From a virus (taxonomy: Duplodnaviria > Caudoviricetes): 64,000 nt of DNA. The stretch is from the IMG/VR virus record IMGVR_UViG_2675903055_000001, positions 26,476 to 90,475 of that record; one strand, 5' to 3'. The notes below the pieces were generated by a model that searched no databases, was not told where the DNA came from, and saw nothing but the letters and a program-made list of their open reading frames with translations. The first letter of the stretch is position 1; every line of letters starts with the position of its first letter. The translations under genes were made by a program, and so were the position numbers. Of the stretch, positions 27,563 to 33,220 are shown piece by piece.

Positions 27563-27799
27563 TCAGAGGTGGCGGATGATCCAGTCGAGGACGGCGATCC
27601 AGGCGAGGACGGCGAAGCCGCAGCCGGTGCGCCACGACAGCCGCTGGCGGACGCCTACGGTCTCGATGTGCTCGCCGTCGGGTCTGAGCCCGTGGTGGGC
27701 CAGCTGACGGTGACGGCCGCGGACGGCGCGCAGGGCGACGCGGGAGTGCACCGGTTCGGCGGTGGTGCCGCAGTCGTCGCACCGGTACTGGTAGGCCAT
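27563..27799 (-). CDS. Zn-ribbon plus C-terminal TM protein (plasmid/AICE spread-region type)
   Basis: YRCDDC..H..H, C-terminal hydrophobic helix. Confidence 0.7.
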   Translation of the reverse strand: MAYQYRCDDCGTTAEPVHSRVALRAVRGRHRQLAHHGLRPDGEHIETVGVRQRLSWRTGCGFAVLAWIAVLDWIIRHL

Positions 27800-27819
27800 C
27801 GGCGGGTCCTCTCGGGGGC

Positions 27820-27893
27820 GGTAGGCGGGTAGGTAGGAACGGGGTAGGCGGCGGGTAGGACGTGGGCTGACCTGCGGTTCCTACCGGGCTACC
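27820..27893. repeat. GGTAG(G) direct repeats (5) and inverted CTACC(GGG) (2)
   Basis: GGTAG at 27820, 27828, 27832, 27843, 27854; CTACC at 27881, 27889. Confidence 0.65.
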
Positions 27894-29101: not shown

Positions 29102-29755
29102 TCAGAGGGAGGCGGGCGCGTACAGGCCCAAGGCGAGGACGGCAGAGGCGAGGGGGGCGCGGCAGATCCACGGGAGCGGGCCCCACCAGCCGCGGGTGCG
29201 GCGGTCGAGGACCTGGCCGAGGAGGACGACGATGCCGCTGCCGAGGAGCAGTGCGGTGGTGACGCTGTAGTCGCGGCCGCAGTCGGTGATCCAGCCTCCG
29301 AACAGGTCGACCAGGCCAAAGCTCCAGCCCAACGTGGCGGCGCTGCCGTTGTAGAGCAGGACCCAGGTGCGGTGCTCGACGTGCAGGTGCTGGCGGACCT
29401 GCTCGGCCCGCTGGTCGACGGCGCCCGTCTTGATGGTGGGCAGCCGCCGCCGGGGCTCGGGCGCCGGCTCCGGGGTGTCGGGGTCGGCCGTCAGCTCCTC
29501 GACGGGCTGGGGCTGGGCGCTCGTCTGCGGGCGCGGCACGGGCAGCTCGGCCTCGGGGGGCTCCGGGGGCCTGGTCCACCAGTCGGCGGCGGGCCCGGTG
29601 TCGGTGCCGTCGGCGTACAGCCGGTCCCACCAGTCGTCGTCGTGGCGGTCGGCTGGCTCGGGGGCGGGCTTGCGCCACGGCGGGAGGTTGTCGGCCCCGG
29701 CCGGCGCGGGCGGCATCTCGGGCGCGAGCGGGGGCTGCTGTCCGTCGCTGCTCAC
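29102..29755 (-). CDS. Membrane protein, acidic Pro-rich N-terminus and 3 C-terminal TM segments
   Basis: DDDWWDRLY; C-terminal hydrophobic helices. Confidence 0.7.
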   Translation of the reverse strand: MSSDGQQPPLAPEMPPAPAGADNLPPWRKPAPEPADRHDDDWWDRLYADGTDTGPAADWWTRPPEPPEAELPVPRPQTSAQPQPVEELTADPDTPEPAPEPRRRLPTIKTGAVDQRAEQVRQHLHVEHRTWVLLYNGSAATLGWSFGLVDLFGGWITDCGRDYSVTTALLLGSGIVVLLGQVLDRRTRGWWGPLPWICRAPLASAVLALGLYAPASL

Positions 29756-30078
29756 GAGTGGTCTCCGCACTGGTGGTCGCGGCCGTCGGCGAGCGCCGCG
29801 GCGAAGCCGGATTCGGGCCGGTAGCCGAGGGCGAGGCGGTGGCAGGGGCAGCGCCAGGCATAGCCGTGCACGGTGTACTCGCCCTGCGGGGACAGCACTT
29901 CGTAGTCGGCGCGGTGGACGGTGACGCGGGTGTCGGAGCGGCTGGTGACGGTGGTGATGACGCCGGACATGGCCGGCGCTGTCGACGTGCCGGTCGGGGT
30001 GGGCTCGGCTGCCTGCGTGGTGCTGGCCGTGGTCCAGCCCGGGGGCAGCGTGCCGGGGGCGGCGGGGGGGTCGGTCAT
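29752..30078 (-). CDS. Hypothetical protein with CPC..H.C motif
   Basis: Stop/start overlaps in operon. Confidence 0.6.
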   Translation of the reverse strand: MTDPPAAPGTLPPGWTTASTTQAAEPTPTGTSTAPAMSGVITTVTSRSDTRVTVHRADYEVLSPQGEYTVHGYAWRCPCHRLALGYRPESGFAAALADGRDHQCGDHS

Positions 30079-30083
30079 GACGA

Positions 30084-31601
30084 TCACTGGGTCTCCTGGG
30101 CGTCGAGGTGGCGGCGGATGGCGGACGCCTTGGACTGGCCGACACCGAGCCCCGACTTGAGGGCGCGGATGCCCGCGGGCTTGCCGTGGGTACGGCGGTG
30201 CTCGGCGTCGAGTACGCGCGCCCGGTCGAGGAGGGCGTCCGTACCTGGGGGTGTACTCGGCGTACTCGGCTCGGGTACGGGCGCGTACTCGGCGGCCGGA
30301 GCCGGGGGCTCGTCGGGGTGCTCCGCCGGTGCGTCGTGGGTGGTGCTCTCGGGGAGCCGGGCGTGTACCTGGGTACGGGTACGGTCCGCGGCGAGTACGG
30401 GCTCCGGGTCCTGTACCTCGGGGTGTACCTCGGTGTCGGGTACGTCGGCGGGTACGGGTGTCTGTGCTGGTGGGGCCGCGGGTACGGCCTGTACCTCGGG
30501 TGCGGGTACGGCCTCGGGTGCGGGCGGTTCGACCGGGTCGGGTACGGCGGGGGTGGCCGTGTCCAGGCGTGGCGGATTGCCCGCCCGGGTGGCCATCCGC
30601 ACCAGCGTCTCGGTGACGGGTACGCCGTACCCGGTGCACAGCGACGCGAGTCCGGCCGGGGTGCGATCCGGGTGCGCGGCGGCCACCCGGCGTACCGCAT
30701 CGAACCGGTCGAGGCGCTTGAGTTCGGCCGTGGTGATGCCGTGCGGGGTACGCAGGTACGGGGCGGGTACAGCCTCGACGGTCCACAGCGACGGCAGGGG
30801 TACGTCCTTCAGCGCGGCGGCACCGCGCCGTGCGGCGAGGAGCTGCATGAGCTGGTGCCGCTGCTGACCGTTGACACCGACCTGCGCGCGGGCAACCGCG
30901 GCGGCGAGCCGCTTCTTCCCCCACGGGCCAAGGCGGTCGCGGGAGGCGAGGCGGACGGCGCGGGCGGTGGCACGGTCGCGGGTGATCTGCTCGGCGTCCC
31001 GGTCCCGGGTCGCGAGCCCCGCGTAGGACAGGACCCGCTCGCGCAACTCGCGTCCGACGACGGCCAGCAGCCCGGAGGCGAGGGCCTGCGGGCGGGCGAT
31101 GCGAATCTCCAGCCCCATGGCGAGGTGCCACAGGATGCCGGCCATGACGGGCCCGATGACGGCGCGGACCGTGCCGCCGACGAGTCCGGACTCGGTGAGG
31201 GCGGGGATGACCTGGACGCCGGTGATGACCCACACGAGGACGCCGGGCGTTCCCGAGGTGCCGGCCGTGGTGTCGGTGGTGGTGGCGCGTTTGTGGGCTC
31301 GGGCGAGGAGCGCGCAGGCGAGGAGCGCGATCTCCCCTGCGGCGAAGAAGAACAGCCGCTCGTTCTGGCTGTGCATGCCGAGCCGGTGCGCGGCGAACCG
31401 CCAGCTCGTGTCCGCGGTGTAGCCGGTGCAGGCGGCGGCGCCGATCGACGCGACGACGACGGACGCGGAGGGCCGGGCGGCGGCTCGCAGGCCGCGGACG
31501 ATGAGCCACCCGGCGAGGACGAGCAGCCCGCAGACACCGACCGCGAGGACCGCAGCCGGGAGCGGGTTGGCCTGTGCCCAGTGGGCGGCGGGTGCGGTCA
31601 T
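30084..31601 (-). CDS. SpdB2/DUF2637-like membrane protein with C-terminal HTH
   Basis: 4-5 N-terminal TM helices, basic middle, Pro/Val/Glu linker, terminal GIRALKSGLGVGQSKASAIR HTH. Confidence 0.65.
   Translation of the reverse strand: MTAPAAHWAQANPLPAAVLAVGVCGLLVLAGWLIVRGLRAAARPSASVVVASIGAAACTGYTADTSWRFAAHRLGMHSQNERLFFFAAGEIALLACALLARAHKRATTTDTTAGTSGTPGVLVWVITGVQVIPALTESGLVGGTVRAVIGPVMAGILWHLAMGLEIRIARPQALASGLLAVVGRELRERVLSYAGLATRDRDAEQITRDRATARAVRLASRDRLGPWGKKRLAAAVARAQVGVNGQQRHQLMQLLAARRGAAALKDVPLPSLWTVEAVPAPYLRTPHGITTAELKRLDRFDAVRRVAAAHPDRTPAGLASLCTGYGVPVTETLVRMATRAGNPPRLDTATPAVPDPVEPPAPEAVPAPEVQAVPAAPPAQTPVPADVPDTEVHPEVQDPEPVLAADRTRTQVHARLPESTTHDAPAEHPDEPPAPAAEYAPVPEPSTPSTPPGTDALLDRARVLDAEHRRTHGKPAGIRALKSGLGVGQSKASAIRRHLDAQETQ
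30188..30805. repeat. In-gene GTAC-core iteron array (26 copies; main unit GGGTACGG)
   Basis: Hand count of 26 GTAC in ~615 bp; none seen in the 5' half of the same gene. Confidence 0.85.
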
Positions 31602-31795
31602 CGTCGTCGTGCTCCCCTGCGGGATCGTCGGATGCGGTGGTGGTGTGCGCGCCAGGAGGCGACCGCGGCGGCGCCCATGACGAGGACGCCGGGCCTGAAG
31701 TCGCCGAGCGCGGCGAGGAGGGCGAGGGCGGTGAACGTCCAGCGGGCGAGCGGCCCGCACAGTTCGTCCCGCAGCCGGGGGCGTAGGCGGGTCAC
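31598..31795 (-). CDS. Small two-TM membrane protein
   Basis: WTFTALALLAALG..GVLVMGAAAVASW. Confidence 0.65.
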   Translation of the reverse strand: MTRLRPRLRDELCGPLARWTFTALALLAALGDFRPGVLVMGAAAVASWRAHHHRIRRSRRGARRR

Positions 31796-31944
31796 CGGGG
31801 CTCCGTCCGGGTGCCGAGCCGCTCCAGCATGTGGGCGAGGGCGATGGCGTCGCAGAGGCTGATGAGCGGTCCGTGGAGGCGCCATGTGAGGAGGTGCCAC
31901 AGGAGTGCGGGGATGGCGGTGGTGGTGGGGTGTGGAAGGTTCAC
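31792..31944 (-). CDS. 50-aa hypothetical protein (not in ORF track)
   Basis: VNLPHPTTTAIPALLWHLLTWRLHG...; GGAG RBS, GTGA overlap. Confidence 0.55.
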   Translation of the reverse strand: MNLPHPTTTAIPALLWHLLTWRLHGPLISLCDAIALAHMLERLGTRTEPR

Positions 31945-31956
31945 GGTCGGCTCCGA

Positions 31957-31993
31957 GGCCGGGCCCGCCCTAGGGGTGGAGGCGGGCCCGGCC
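31957..31993. terminator. 13-bp stem-loop inside the spd-like operon
   Basis: GGCCGGGCCCGCC / GGCGGGCCCGGCC. Confidence 0.5.
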
Positions 31994-32204: not shown

Positions 32205-32377
32205 CAGCCGGCCCGCCCCACGTGCTGACGCTGCTGCCCGTCGGTGCGGGGGTGGGCGCAGCAGTTGCGCCACGTTTGCCGGACGATGCCGTCTCCGGAG
32301 GTGTCCTCGACATAGCCGCCGCTGCCGTCGCACTGCTGCTCTTGGGTACCGGGCTCGGCCGGCTCGACGGCGGTCAC
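32204..32377 (-). CDS. 57-aa hypothetical protein
   Basis: CDGSGG..CC.H; overlaps both neighbours. Confidence 0.55.
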   Translation of the reverse strand: MTAVEPAEPGTQEQQCDGSGGYVEDTSGDGIVRQTWRNCCAHPRTDGQQRQHVGRAG

Positions 32378-32682
32378 AGCGTCACTCCCTCGTCGAGGGC
32401 GATCTGGATGCGGCGGTGGAGCAGGCGCGGCGGGGTCGGCTCGTGCGGGTTGCCGATCACCTTGAGGGCGGCCTCCACGTCGTCGCTCACGGCGGGCCCG
32501 TTGCTGCCGTGGATGCGGCGGGCGTGGAGGCCGAGGAGCAGCGGCACGTCGAGAACGCCGGGCCCACCGGCGCGGCTGATCGTGCCGTCGAGCCCGGTGA
32601 GGGTAGCGGTGAGGAGCTGGACGACGCGTTGCGTCGGACTGTCGGGGTCGGCGTGGGTGCCGATAGCATCCGGCATGGTCAT
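32374..32682 (-). CDS. Hypothetical protein, first gene of the spd-like operon
   Basis: AGGAGG RBS, MTMPDAIG... Confidence 0.7.
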   Translation of the reverse strand: MTMPDAIGTHADPDSPTQRVVQLLTATLTGLDGTISRAGGPGVLDVPLLLGLHARRIHGSNGPAVSDDVEAALKVIGNPHEPTPPRLLHRRIQIALDEGVTL

Positions 32683-32716
32683 TCCTCCTGGTAGCGCAGG
32701 TAGGGGTGACTCCCGC

Positions 32717-32822
32717 GCCCGTGTGCGACCACGGGCCGGGGCTTGACGGTGCCCGGTGTGCGACCACCGGGCACCGTCGGTTTGGTGCGGCCCTGGTTCG
32801 TGTGCGACCACGAACCAGGGCC
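32717..32822 (-). repeat. Three tandem hairpins with identical GTG-TGCGAC-CAC apex but different stems
   Basis: GTGTGCGACCAC at 32721, 32756, 32800; stems of 7, 14 and 14 bp. Confidence 0.9.
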
Positions 32823-32846
32823 TTGTGCATTGGCAGCGTGGGCTGC

Positions 32847-32883
32847 TTGTCACCAATGTATGGGCACCCATACAATTAGGCAA
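32847..32883. promoter_or_regulatory. Overlapping divergent sigma70-type promoters sharing a palindromic operator
   Basis: Plus: TTGTCA(32847)-18-TACAAT(32871). Minus: TTGCCT(32883)-17-TACATT(32860). Operator TGTATGGG-CA-CCCATACA at 32857-74. Confidence 0.85.
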
Positions 32884-32908
32884 GCGGCTCCCGAAGATGA
32901 GGAACGGG

Positions 32909-33220
32909 ATGACCGAAGAACCCATCGACCAGGAGGCGCAGCGTGTGTTCGACGCTCTCGACGAAGTGGAAGCGATGACCGACCCGCTGGCCCGGGCGCG
33001 CGTGATCGGCTTGCTCCTGAAGGACCAAGCGAAGCGCAACAAGAAGTTCCACGAGTACCGGCGGCAGGTCGTCCTCGAACTGCGCGAGCAGAAGGTGCCC
33101 TACCGCAAGATCGCCGAACAGTTGGGCGTGTCACTCGGCACGGTCCAAGACATCGAGCGTGGGGCAGGCCGCTGGACACAACGCCCGAGGAAGGACTCGC
33201 CGCAGGATGCACCCGAGTAG
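32909..33220 (+). CDS. HTH repressor of the spd-like module
   Basis: VPYRKIAEQLGVSLGTVQDIERG HTH; divergent from the operon. Confidence 0.85.
   Translation: MTEEPIDQEAQRVFDALDEVEAMTDPLARARVIGLLLKDQAKRNKKFHEYRRQVVLELREQKVPYRKIAEQLGVSLGTVQDIERGAGRWTQRPRKDSPQDAPE

What the first reader, a model, noticed from the sequence alone, without database searches (positions are those of the whole stretch)
32717..32822. Leader with three hairpins sharing an identical 12-nt apex (GTG-TGCGAC-CAC) on unrelated stems
Seen: three perfect stem-loops (7, 14 and 14 bp) lie between the leftward promoter and the first gene of the spd-like operon. Stems differ completely but stay perfectly complementary, while the loop and top 3 bp are invariant (RNA apex GUG-GUCGCA-CAC on the transcribed strand). 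This pattern indicates selection for structure plus a protein-read loop. Inference: boxB/put-like antitermination or RNA-binding-protein sites that let a long membrane operon be read through its internal hairpin (31957-93); or ssDNA/cruciform sites for a nuclease or relaxase; or a repeat-type RNA antitoxin.
Basis: partly seen in the sequence, partly recalled or inferred. Interest (0 to 1): 0.78.

Follow-up and report, generated by a model that had tools for sequence, protein, structure and literature searches.

The report
Prophage antisense RNA with matched loops
The three hairpins are real and conserved, but they most likely belong to a small antisense RNA, made from the opposite strand, that covers the ribosome-binding site of the first gene of a Streptomyces prophage operon; why all three loops read UGCGAC is still unexplained.

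Summary
Observation confirmed. Three hairpins (7, 14 and 14 bp) share the apex GTG-TGCGAC-CAC at 32717-32822, and the 12-mer occurs only once elsewhere in the genome.

The same cassette lies between divergent genes in about 17 other Streptomyces prophage-like loci. Stems covary and the top pairs change in a compensated way. All three loops stay TGCGAC, except in one locus where all three changed together.

- G·U pairs fall on the + strand, antisense to the leftward leader (28 against 3 in the hairpins, 52 against 7 in a fourth stem).
- That fourth stem (P0, 32678-32710) carries the complement of the Shine-Dalgarno sequence and start codon.
- A TANNNT box lies just upstream of P0 in 14 of 16 loci.
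- T-rich, terminator-like tails follow hairpins 2 and 3 on the + strand.

Best reading: a 100-150 nt cis-antisense RNA facing promoter P_L. It works like P22 sar, FinP or CopA, with a shared loop partner not yet identified.

Simpler relatives keep P0 and a single hairpin. No Rfam or phage-collection match was found. BoxB/put-type antitermination is not supported.

This scan had already noted the same kind of matched-loop cassette, with other loops, on other Streptomyces prophage DNA.

No transcript data exist.

The parts
32664..32669 (+). Candidate -10 box (TAGCAT) of the antisense promoter P_as. It lies inside codons 5-7 of the leftward ORF. The predicted start of the antisense RNA is about 32676-32678.
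   Evidence: Exactly one TANNNT in the 60 nt upstream of the anti-SD, at the same place in 14 of 16 cassette loci whose leftward genes belong to several unrelated families. Background frequency is 0.001 per position. The box is also present in single-hairpin relatives. No -35 was recognised. Not tested experimentally.
32678..32710 (+). Stem P0. Its 5' arm is the complement of the start codon and Shine-Dalgarno sequence of the leftward ORF (CAT...CCTCCT). Its 3' arm pairs with it partly through G·U pairs.
   Evidence: Fold. In 16 of 16 loci the + strand folds 2-13 kcal/mol better than the - strand, with 52 G·U pairs on + against 7 on -.
32712..32741 (+). Hairpin 1 (core 32717-32736, 7 bp, loop TGCGAC 32724-32729).
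   Evidence: conserved with covarying stem.
32745..32778 (+). Hairpin 2 (14 bp, loop TGCGAC 32759-32764), followed by GGTTTGG. It is the best conserved hairpin of the family and is followed by a T run in most loci.
32789..32822 (+). Hairpin 3 (14 bp, loop TGCGAC 32803-32808).
32823..32832 (+). T-rich tail (CTTGTGCATT here; GGGGCTTTGTGCTG in most loci). Probable 3' end of the antisense RNA.
   Evidence: Conserved in alignment A1. The same 14-mer tail follows ordinary GC-rich end-of-gene hairpins in many actinobacterial viral contigs. The window's own copy did not pass the simple terminator scan.
32856..32884 (-). Leftward promoter P_L: -35 TTGCCT (complement of 32879-32884), 17-nt spacer, -10 TACATT (complement of 32856-32861). 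The predicted start is about 32848, giving a leader of about 165 nt that contains the complements of all three hairpins.
   Evidence: Read from the sequence. Scores 8 of 12, below the scan's reporting threshold. Equivalent hexamers are kept in the loci with the same type of rightward gene.
32847..32876 (+). Rightward promoter P_R (TTGTCA, 18 nt, TACAAT) for the HTH gene.
   Evidence: 10 of 12 matches; 0.1 expected in shuffles.
32857..32874 (.). Palindromic operator TGTATGGG-CA-CCCATACA, which spans the -10 boxes of both P_L and P_R.
   Evidence: (inverted repeat I25) and sequence. Conserved as a palindrome of varying sequence in related loci.
32374..32682 (-). First leftward ORF (102 aa; Shine-Dalgarno AGGAGG is the complement of 32684-32689). 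It is the presumed target of the antisense RNA. Function unknown.
   Evidence: no Pfam or PHROG match.
32909..33220 (+). Rightward HTH gene (103 aa; HTH_23), the probable regulator acting at the operator.
   Evidence: E = 4.8e-7; homologues beside related cassettes.

Best explanation
The cassette is most likely the gene of a small cis-antisense RNA (a countertranscript) made from the + strand.

Proposed anatomy, all inferred from sequence:
- A promoter whose -10 box (TAGCAT, 32664-32669) lies inside the first codons of the leftward ORF starts an RNA at about 32677.
- The RNA folds into four consecutive stem-loops: P0, whose 5' arm is the anti-start-codon and anti-Shine-Dalgarno sequence, then HP1, HP2 and HP3.
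- It ends at the T-rich tails after HP2 (about 100 nt) or HP3 (about 150 nt).
- It is fully complementary to the roughly 165-nt leader that promoter P_L makes in the opposite direction.

Proposed action, also inferred:
- The three exposed UGCGAC loops meet the complementary GUCGCA loops of the leader hairpins (loop-loop kissing).
- Pairing then spreads to the ribosome-binding site. This blocks translation of the first leftward gene and creates a long duplex that RNase III could cut.
- Convergent transcription from P_as and P_L may add transcriptional interference.
- The result is a second, RNA-level lock on the leftward operon, beside the protein operator shared by P_L and P_R.

Shown here: the structure, its conservation, its strand bias and the positions of the promoter-like and terminator-like elements.

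Unexplained: plain antisense pairing does not require the three loops to be identical, nor to change together as in one relative. This points to one shared partner for all three loops, either a protein (probably of the host) or a particular loop fold.
For: 1. The cassette is conserved in about 17 further loci in Streptomyces genomes and viral or metagenome contigs. They were found by BLAST, by pattern, by covariance model, and once by protein homology alone.
2. 17 of 33 consensus pairs show double compensatory changes. The top pairs vary as GTG/CAC, GAG/CTC, GTA/TAC, GCG/CGC and CCG/CGG around a fixed loop.
3. Strand: on the consensus pairs there are 28 G·U cells on the + strand against 3 A·C cells, which would be G·U on the - strand. 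The difference is still significant after correcting for the G+T-rich + strand (p 0.003-0.017).
4. P0 folds better on the + strand in 16 of 16 loci, with 52 G·U pairs against 7. For the hairpins the free-energy difference favours the + strand (Wilcoxon p = 0.003). Whole cassettes fold better on + in 14 of 15 loci.
5. A single TANNNT sits 17-24 nt upstream of the anti-SD in 14 of 16 loci, although the leftward genes belong to unrelated families.
6. T content after HP2 and HP3 is 2.3-2.5 of 9 on the + strand against 0.3-0.8 on the - strand. The tail GGGGCTTTGTGCTG is a common terminator tail in actinobacterial viral contigs.
7. Relatives with homologous rightward genes keep P0, one tailed hairpin and the TANNNT box, and also fold better on the + strand. 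The general module is therefore an anti-RBS stem plus a terminator.
8. The flanking genes are mosaic and no protein family travels with the cassette.
Against: - There are no transcript data: no start site, 3' end or Northern blot.
- No -35 element was recognised for P_as.
- The window's own tails are weak, and the simple terminator scan called nothing.
- The anti-SD sequence of the proposed RNA is buried in P0.
- The loops lack the YUNR U-turn motif typical of fast-pairing antisense RNAs (read from the sequence).
- Loop identity and the concerted loop change are not explained by cis-antisense pairing.
- The + strand is G+T-rich, which inflates raw G·U counts.
- The loci are related, so the counts are not independent.
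- Many loci were retrieved with the loop motif itself, which biases 'loop invariance across loci'.
- G·T pairs would fit single-stranded DNA as well as RNA.
Confidence: 0.6

Rival explanations
1. The hairpins act in the leftward mRNA leader (loops GUCGCA) as sites for an RNA-binding antiterminator (boxB/N-like), or as a put-like RNA that lets RNA polymerase read through the long operon.
For: The hairpins do lie between a conserved leftward promoter and the first leftward gene. The - strand also folds very stably. Identical loops on unrelated stems are typical of protein-binding arrays.
Against: G·U pairs and P0 favour the other strand. Single-hairpin relatives lack an array. The loop is 6 nt and not GNRA-like. 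No Rfam match was found. No conserved candidate protein was found. No T-tailed terminator was seen downstream on the - strand; the hairpin at 31957-93 has no U tail.
Confidence: 0.1
2. The + strand transcript is not a free small RNA. It is a second, upstream start for the rightward regulator gene, in the manner of lambda P_RE. HP2 and HP3 then act as attenuators whose read-through is set by a factor that binds the loops.
For: It uses the same + strand evidence: TANNNT, P0 and G·U pairs. The tails are imperfect terminators. The transcript would run antisense to the leftward start and then into the HTH gene, as P_RE does across cro into cI (comparison from my own knowledge).
Against: The rightward gene has its own strong promoter, with the operator between the hairpins and the gene. 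There are two or three very stable hairpins with tails in series. Three unrelated families of rightward genes follow the same cassette.
Confidence: 0.12
3. The antisense RNA exists, but its main role is to bind several copies of a protein through the three identical loops. It would act as a sponge, or as a protein-dependent switch, for a host RNA-binding protein such as an ANTAR regulator.
For: There are identical hexaloops on unrelated stems, and one relative changed all three loops together. No element-encoded reader co-occurs, so a host factor is plausible. The host has four ANTAR proteins. ANTAR targets are tandem hairpins with hexaloops, G at position 4 and linkers of 2-25 nt (PMC8164766).
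Against: The ANTAR signature A at loop position 1 is not met; it is U on the + strand and G on the - strand. The stems are far longer than in ANTAR targets, and there are three hairpins, not two. CsrA is absent from the host. No binding data exist.
Confidence: 0.1
4. The hairpins form in single-stranded or extruded + strand DNA and are read by a DNA enzyme: a primase or initiator at an origin, a nuclease, or an HUH-type protein.
For: G·T pairs are also tolerated in DNA hairpins. The stems are long and GC-rich and could extrude. A GIY-YIG gene lies nearby in this window.
Against: The GIY-YIG gene and the other neighbours are not conserved beside the cassette. No HUH, Rep or primase domain appeared among the neighbouring ORFs scanned. 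This model does not explain why one arm of P0 is exactly the anti-RBS, nor the TANNNT box, nor the T tails.
Confidence: 0.05

Closest known systems
Phage P22 sar RNA against ant (immI region), and F-plasmid FinP against traJ (comparison from my own knowledge)
   Same: A short, highly structured RNA is made from a promoter inside the 5' end of the target gene, on the opposite strand. It is complementary to the ribosome-binding site and leader of the first gene of an operon of a mobile element, and it sits next to a protein-controlled promoter.
   Different: Here there are four stem-loops. Three of them carry an identical hexaloop on unrelated stems. The anti-SD is inside a stem built with G·U pairs. 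No partner protein such as FinO is known, and nothing has been tested experimentally.
Plasmid countertranscripts with loop-loop kissing: ColE1 RNA I/RNA II (three stem-loops, Rop), R1 CopA/CopT (from my own knowledge)
   Same: Several stable hairpins have loops that can kiss the complementary loops of the sense leader. The two promoters face each other.
   Different: In those systems each loop has its own sequence and many carry a YUNR U-turn. Here all the loops are the same and have no YUNR. The target here is a phage operon start, not a replication primer or rep gene.
Matched-loop hairpin cassettes noted earlier in this scan on other Streptomyces prophages (e1-2917924, e1-3648811; unchecked AI notes)
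   Same: Three hairpins with one shared loop lie between facing promoters, and an antisense RNA over the next gene's ribosome-binding site is the preferred reading. Those notes report that the loops differ between elements but change together.
   Different: The loop sequences differ (TCATCAC; a GGTGACAC apex). I could not align those loci here. In my set one loop (UGCGAC) dominates even among loci found without using the loop, with one concerted variant (UGUCGY).
ANTAR-target RNAs of Actinobacteria (PMC8164766; PMC3369931)
   Same: Tandem hairpins with hexanucleotide loops, G at loop position 4 and linkers within 2-25 nt, close to a ribosome-binding site. The host encodes four ANTAR proteins.
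   Different: Position 1 is U (or G on the other strand), not A. There are three hairpins with stems of 7-16 bp. No such family was reported by the Rfam scan.
Lambda boxB/N and HK022 put antitermination sites
   Same: Repeated hairpins in a phage leader downstream of an early promoter.
   Different: The loop type and length differ. Strand evidence points the other way. No N-like protein was found. Relatives manage with one hairpin.

Membership tests
Cis-encoded antisense (countertranscript) regulators of phage and plasmid operons | A promoter on the opposite strand within or next to the 5' end of the target gene | tested here: met
   TANNNT at a fixed position in 14 of 16 loci. This is an in-silico result only, and no -35 was found.
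Cis-encoded antisense (countertranscript) regulators of phage and plasmid operons | A short transcript ended by an intrinsic terminator | tested here: inconclusive
   GC-rich HP2 and HP3 have T-enriched tails on the + strand only, and the tail is a common terminator tail. The strict scan called none in the window.
Cis-encoded antisense (countertranscript) regulators of phage and plasmid operons | Complementarity to the target's ribosome-binding site and leader | tested here: met
   The 5' arm of P0 is the complement of the start codon and AGGAGG. The cassette spans almost the whole predicted leader.
Cis-encoded antisense (countertranscript) regulators of phage and plasmid operons | Structure selected on the antisense strand | tested here: met
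   G·U pairs 28 against 3 in the hairpins and 52 against 7 in P0. P0 is better on the + strand in 16 of 16 loci.
Cis-encoded antisense (countertranscript) regulators of phage and plasmid operons | The RNA is made and represses its target | not testable with these tools
   No transcriptome or reporter data were available.
Cis-encoded antisense (countertranscript) regulators of phage and plasmid operons | YUNR U-turn in the recognition loops (frequent, not obligatory) | tested here: not met
   Neither GUGUGCGACCAC nor its complement contains Y-U-N-R in the loop (read).
boxB/N-type or put-type processive antitermination sites | Short hairpin with a GNRA-like pentaloop (boxB), or the two-stem put fold, in the transcript of the regulated operon | tested here: not met
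   The loop is a hexaloop, the stems are 7-16 bp, the structure is selected on the opposite strand, and there was no Rfam hit.
boxB/N-type or put-type processive antitermination sites | A cognate antiterminator protein encoded by the element (for boxB) | tested here: not met
   No protein family is shared by all the cassette-bearing elements. Coverage of many loci was only 3-12 kb.
ANTAR-target RNA | Dual stem-loops with hexanucleotide loops, A at position 1 and G at position 4, linker of 2-25 nt (PMC8164766) | tested here: not met
   Hexaloops, G4 and linker length are met. A1 is not met (U on +, G on -). There are three hairpins..
Csr/Rsm-type protein-sequestering sRNA | Several hairpins with GGA in the loop, and a CsrA protein in the host | tested here: not met
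   The loop is UGCGAC, and PF02599 found no match in the 100%-complete genome.
Type III toxin-antitoxin RNA antitoxin (ToxI-like) | Tandem direct repeats of one unit next to an endoribonuclease toxin gene | tested here: not met
   Only the 12-nt apex repeats; the stems are unrelated. No such toxin domain appeared in the neighbours.
T-loop motif (UGNRA) hairpin | Five-nucleotide UGNRA followed by two bulged nucleotides in a 7-nt terminal loop (bioRxiv 10.1101/2022.12.26.521914) | tested here: inconclusive
   UGCGA fits UGNRA, but the loop has 6 nt rather than 7. The variant loops UGUCGY do not fit.

The most novel reading that the evidence does not exclude
The three identical loops are a recognition tag read by one shared partner: a host RNA-binding protein (for example an ANTAR-type regulator) or a T-loop-like docking fold. 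This would make a family of Streptomyces prophage switch RNAs whose activity, or whose cross-immunity between phages, is set by a six-base loop code that has to change in all the hairpins at once.
Probability: 0.25. Interest if true: 0.75.

Novelty: new variant of a known kind. Interest (0 to 1): 0.55.

Why it matters
Regulation of temperate Streptomyces phages is poorly known, and I found no description of an RNA-level lock at their genetic switch in the papers searched. If the reading holds, a whole family of prophages uses one compact module: facing promoters, an anti-RBS stem built with G·U pairs so that only the antisense strand folds, and one to three tailed hairpins. The module controls an operon of unknown, partly membrane-associated genes.

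The matched loops raise a clear, testable question: what reads the same six bases three times? The module could also serve as a small orthogonal repression device for Streptomyces engineering.

Tried and rejected
- Rfam, both strands, permissive threshold: only chance-level hits such as VA, 6C and scr5239.
- Phage collection by blastn: no match to the cassette, and only weak matches to the neighbouring genes.
- Pattern scans with the loop motif: most hits outside Streptomyces were unrelated tandem repeats, for example in giant-virus bins and Gammaproteobacteria.
- The 14-mer tail turned out to be a generic terminator tail, not a cassette marker.
- Covariance-model scan of 150 genomes of the genus found only 2 further genomes. 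Its pre-filter scores few candidates, so absence means little.
- Pfam and PHROGs on flanking ORFs here and in L050 gave almost nothing, so 'spd-like' could not be supported. Some of my ORF choices look out of frame.
- ORF clustering across 20 elements to find a loop-reading protein found no family shared by all. A small zinc-ribbon ORF (27563-27880) is the most widespread but is missing from several elements.
- No other hairpin in the window has a TGCGAC or GTCGCA loop that could be a trans target.
- CsrA is absent from the host.
- The protein alignment A2 was too divergent to use for a locus search.
- The dsDNA-operator reading of the 12-mer was rejected because the top pairs covary and only the 6 loop bases are fixed.

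Full report
**Observation**

The window is 70% G+C. The stretch 32683-32908 lies between two divergent genes:
- A leftward ORF (32374-32682, 102 aa, preceded by AGGAGG; no Pfam or PHROG match).
- A rightward HTH gene (32909-33220, HTH_23, E = 4.8e-7). A GIY-YIG endonuclease gene follows it.

Three hairpins sit at 32717-32736, 32745-32778 and 32789-32822. They have 7, 14 and 14 perfect pairs, and each carries loop TGCGAC and closing pairs GTG/CAC. The 12-mer is otherwise found only once in the 7.18-Mb genome, in a place without a hairpin. The region folds far better than shuffled sequence.

**Context**

- The neighbourhood looks like a prophage. It holds DpdA, DUF4326, HNH, endonuclease VII, DUF6221, a PNKP-type phosphatase and a Thg1-like gene, and shows weak DNA similarity to Streptomyces phages.
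- Right of the hairpins lies a palindrome, TGTATGGG-CA-CCCATACA (32857-32874). It spans the -10 boxes of two back-to-back promoters:
  - P_R: TTGTCA, 18 nt, TACAAT (10 of 12).
  - P_L: TTGCCT, 17 nt, TACATT, read from the sequence (8 of 12, below the scan's threshold).
- Both promoters are kept in the loci with the same type of rightward gene.

**Relatives**

- BLAST within the genus, exact-pattern scans of three collections, a covariance model (R1, from alignment A1) and one protein-based search gave about 17 further loci with the same cassette. They lie in Streptomyces genomes, IMG/VR contigs and one metagenome contig.
- The stems differ widely but stay paired: 17 of 33 consensus pairs show double compensatory change.
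- The three top pairs also covary (GTG/CAC, GAG/CTC, GTA/TAC, GCG/CGC, CCG/CGG, and G·U closing pairs in L219). The six loop bases stay TGCGAC.
- One locus (L218) has all three loops changed to TGTCAT, TGTCGT and TGTCGC.
- Caution: many loci were found with the loop itself as the query, so invariance across loci is partly built in. The loci found without it (L006, L007, L008, L021, L369) still all carry TGCGAC.
- The flanking genes are mosaic. There are three unrelated families of small HTH gene on the right and several families on the left, in different combinations.

**Which strand folds**

- On the consensus pairs of A1 there are 28 G·U cells on the + strand against 3 A·C cells, which would be G·U on the - strand. 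The + strand is G+T-rich. After allowing for that, the excess remains (p = 0.003-0.017).
- A fourth stem, P0 (32678-32710), lies between the leftward start codon and hairpin 1.
  - Its 5' arm is the exact complement of the start codon and Shine-Dalgarno sequence.
  - Its 3' arm pairs with that arm largely through G·U.
  - In 16 of 16 loci P0 is 2-13 kcal/mol more stable on the + strand, with 52 G·U pairs against 7.
  - The consequence is that the + strand RNA has a firm stem, while in the mRNA the same positions are C·A mismatches and the ribosome-binding site stays largely open.
- For the three hairpins the free-energy difference is smaller but in the same direction (Wilcoxon p = 0.003).

**Signals on the + strand**

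- In 14 of 16 loci exactly one TANNNT hexamer lies in the 60 nt upstream of the anti-SD. It is always 17-24 nt before it, which places it inside the first codons of leftward genes that belong to unrelated families. The background frequency is 0.001 per position. In the window it is TAGCAT at 32664-32669, which puts a start near 32677, at the foot of P0.
- Hairpins 2 and 3 are followed by T-enriched tails on the + strand (2.3 and 2.5 T in 9), but not on the - strand (0.3 and 0.8).
- The usual tail, GGGGCTTTGTGCTG, follows ordinary end-of-gene hairpins in many actinobacterial viral contigs.
- The window's own tails are weaker, and the strict terminator scan called nothing.

**Simpler relatives**

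Loci with homologues of the window's HTH gene, found by DNA or protein similarity, have the same layout but only one tailed hairpin after P0, with other loops (for example GUGCGAA and GUACGAA). In 15 of 16 such segments the + strand again folds better. The basic module is therefore an anti-RBS stem plus a terminator. The three-hairpin, matched-loop form is an elaboration of it.

**Mechanism proposed**

- A 100-150 nt cis-antisense RNA is made from P_as, facing P_L.
- Its loops can kiss the complementary loops of the leader, and pairing can then spread to the ribosome-binding site.
- This is the logic of P22 sar/ant, FinP/traJ, CopA/CopT and ColE1 RNA I/II (from my own knowledge).
- None of it is shown by experiment.

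What this model does not explain is why the three loops are identical and why they can change together. In a cis pair any loop is automatically complementary to its counterpart. That points to a single partner for all three loops. I tested several candidates:
- No protein family co-occurs with all the cassettes, even between the window's element and the otherwise very different G304/G188/G320/G115 group. This makes a host factor or an intrinsic RNA fold more likely than an element-encoded reader.
- CsrA is absent from the host.
- The host has four ANTAR proteins. Their targets are tandem hexaloop hairpins with A1 and G4 (PMC8164766). Here G4 is present but A1 is not, so membership fails.
- UGCGA fits the T-loop consensus UGNRA (bioRxiv 10.1101/2022.12.26.521914). 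The loop has six bases, not seven, and the variant loops do not fit.
- All of these remain leads only.

**Rivals**

- A P_RE-like second start for the rightward gene, with the hairpins as attenuators, uses the same + strand evidence. It is disfavoured by the strong dedicated promoter P_R and by the serial tailed hairpins.
- Single-stranded DNA sites are compatible with G·T pairs but explain none of the transcription signals.
- A double-stranded operator reading is rejected because the top pairs covary.

**Earlier notes of this scan**

Two follow-up notes on other genomes (e1-2917924, e1-3648811) describe three-hairpin cassettes with other shared loops between facing promoters in Streptomyces prophages, read as antisense RNAs.
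- They made me check my ascertainment bias.
- They agree with the concerted loop change I saw in L218.
- I could not align their loci here.

No paper describing such a module turned up in the literature searches.

**Verdict**

This is a real, conserved, structured element. It is most likely an antisense small RNA gene at the switch of a prophage family, which makes it a new variant of a known kind of regulator. The matched-loop feature remains unexplained.

Noticed in passing
L039:600-720 (Pyrinomonadaceae MAG contig DASQMB010000064.1): Two hairpins carry the very same 12-nt apex GTG-TGCGAC-CAC. They lie in an AT-rich 5' untranslated region, just downstream of a sigma-70-like promoter and on the same strand as a DDE_Tnp_1 transposase gene (E = 8e-25). 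This could be chance, or a hint that this apex has a function outside Streptomyces.
   Followed up: partly
L218 = G110:C79:517808-517926 (related Streptomyces genome): A homologous cassette in which all three loops changed together to TGTCAT, TGTCGT and TGTCGC, beside a homologue of the window's HTH gene and a similar operator.
   Followed up: partly
window 27563-27880 (-): A small zinc-ribbon ORF (weak Zn_ribbon_8 match, phrog_32136) is the leftward-operon gene found in the most elements: 7 three-hairpin elements and 2 single-hairpin ones. It is a possible nucleic-acid binder, but it is absent from several cassette-bearing loci.
   Followed up: partly
L250-L362, many IMG/VR contigs: GC-rich hairpins followed by GGGGCTTTGTGCTG, often preceded by CAAAGCCCC, recur at gene ends in many actinobacterial viral contigs. 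They look like a stereotyped, possibly bidirectional, terminator.
   Followed up: no
window 31957-31993: A strong 14-bp GC hairpin inside the leftward operon (-39.9 kcal/mol on the - strand). Its loop is unrelated to TGCGAC and it has no U tail. Its role is unknown.
   Followed up: partly
L008 / L042 (oriented, between P0 and hairpin 1): Some cassettes carry an extra fifth hairpin with a different loop (for example CCGGCCCGTG-CTTC-CACGGGCCGG) inserted between P0 and hairpin 1.
   Followed up: no
window 29102-30808 and 30084-31940 (-): Two long open frames overlap on the same strand, and one translation is Arg/Pro-rich, as out-of-frame reads are in high-GC DNA. Gene calls in the leftward operon need care before any 'spd-like' claim is made.
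   Followed up: no
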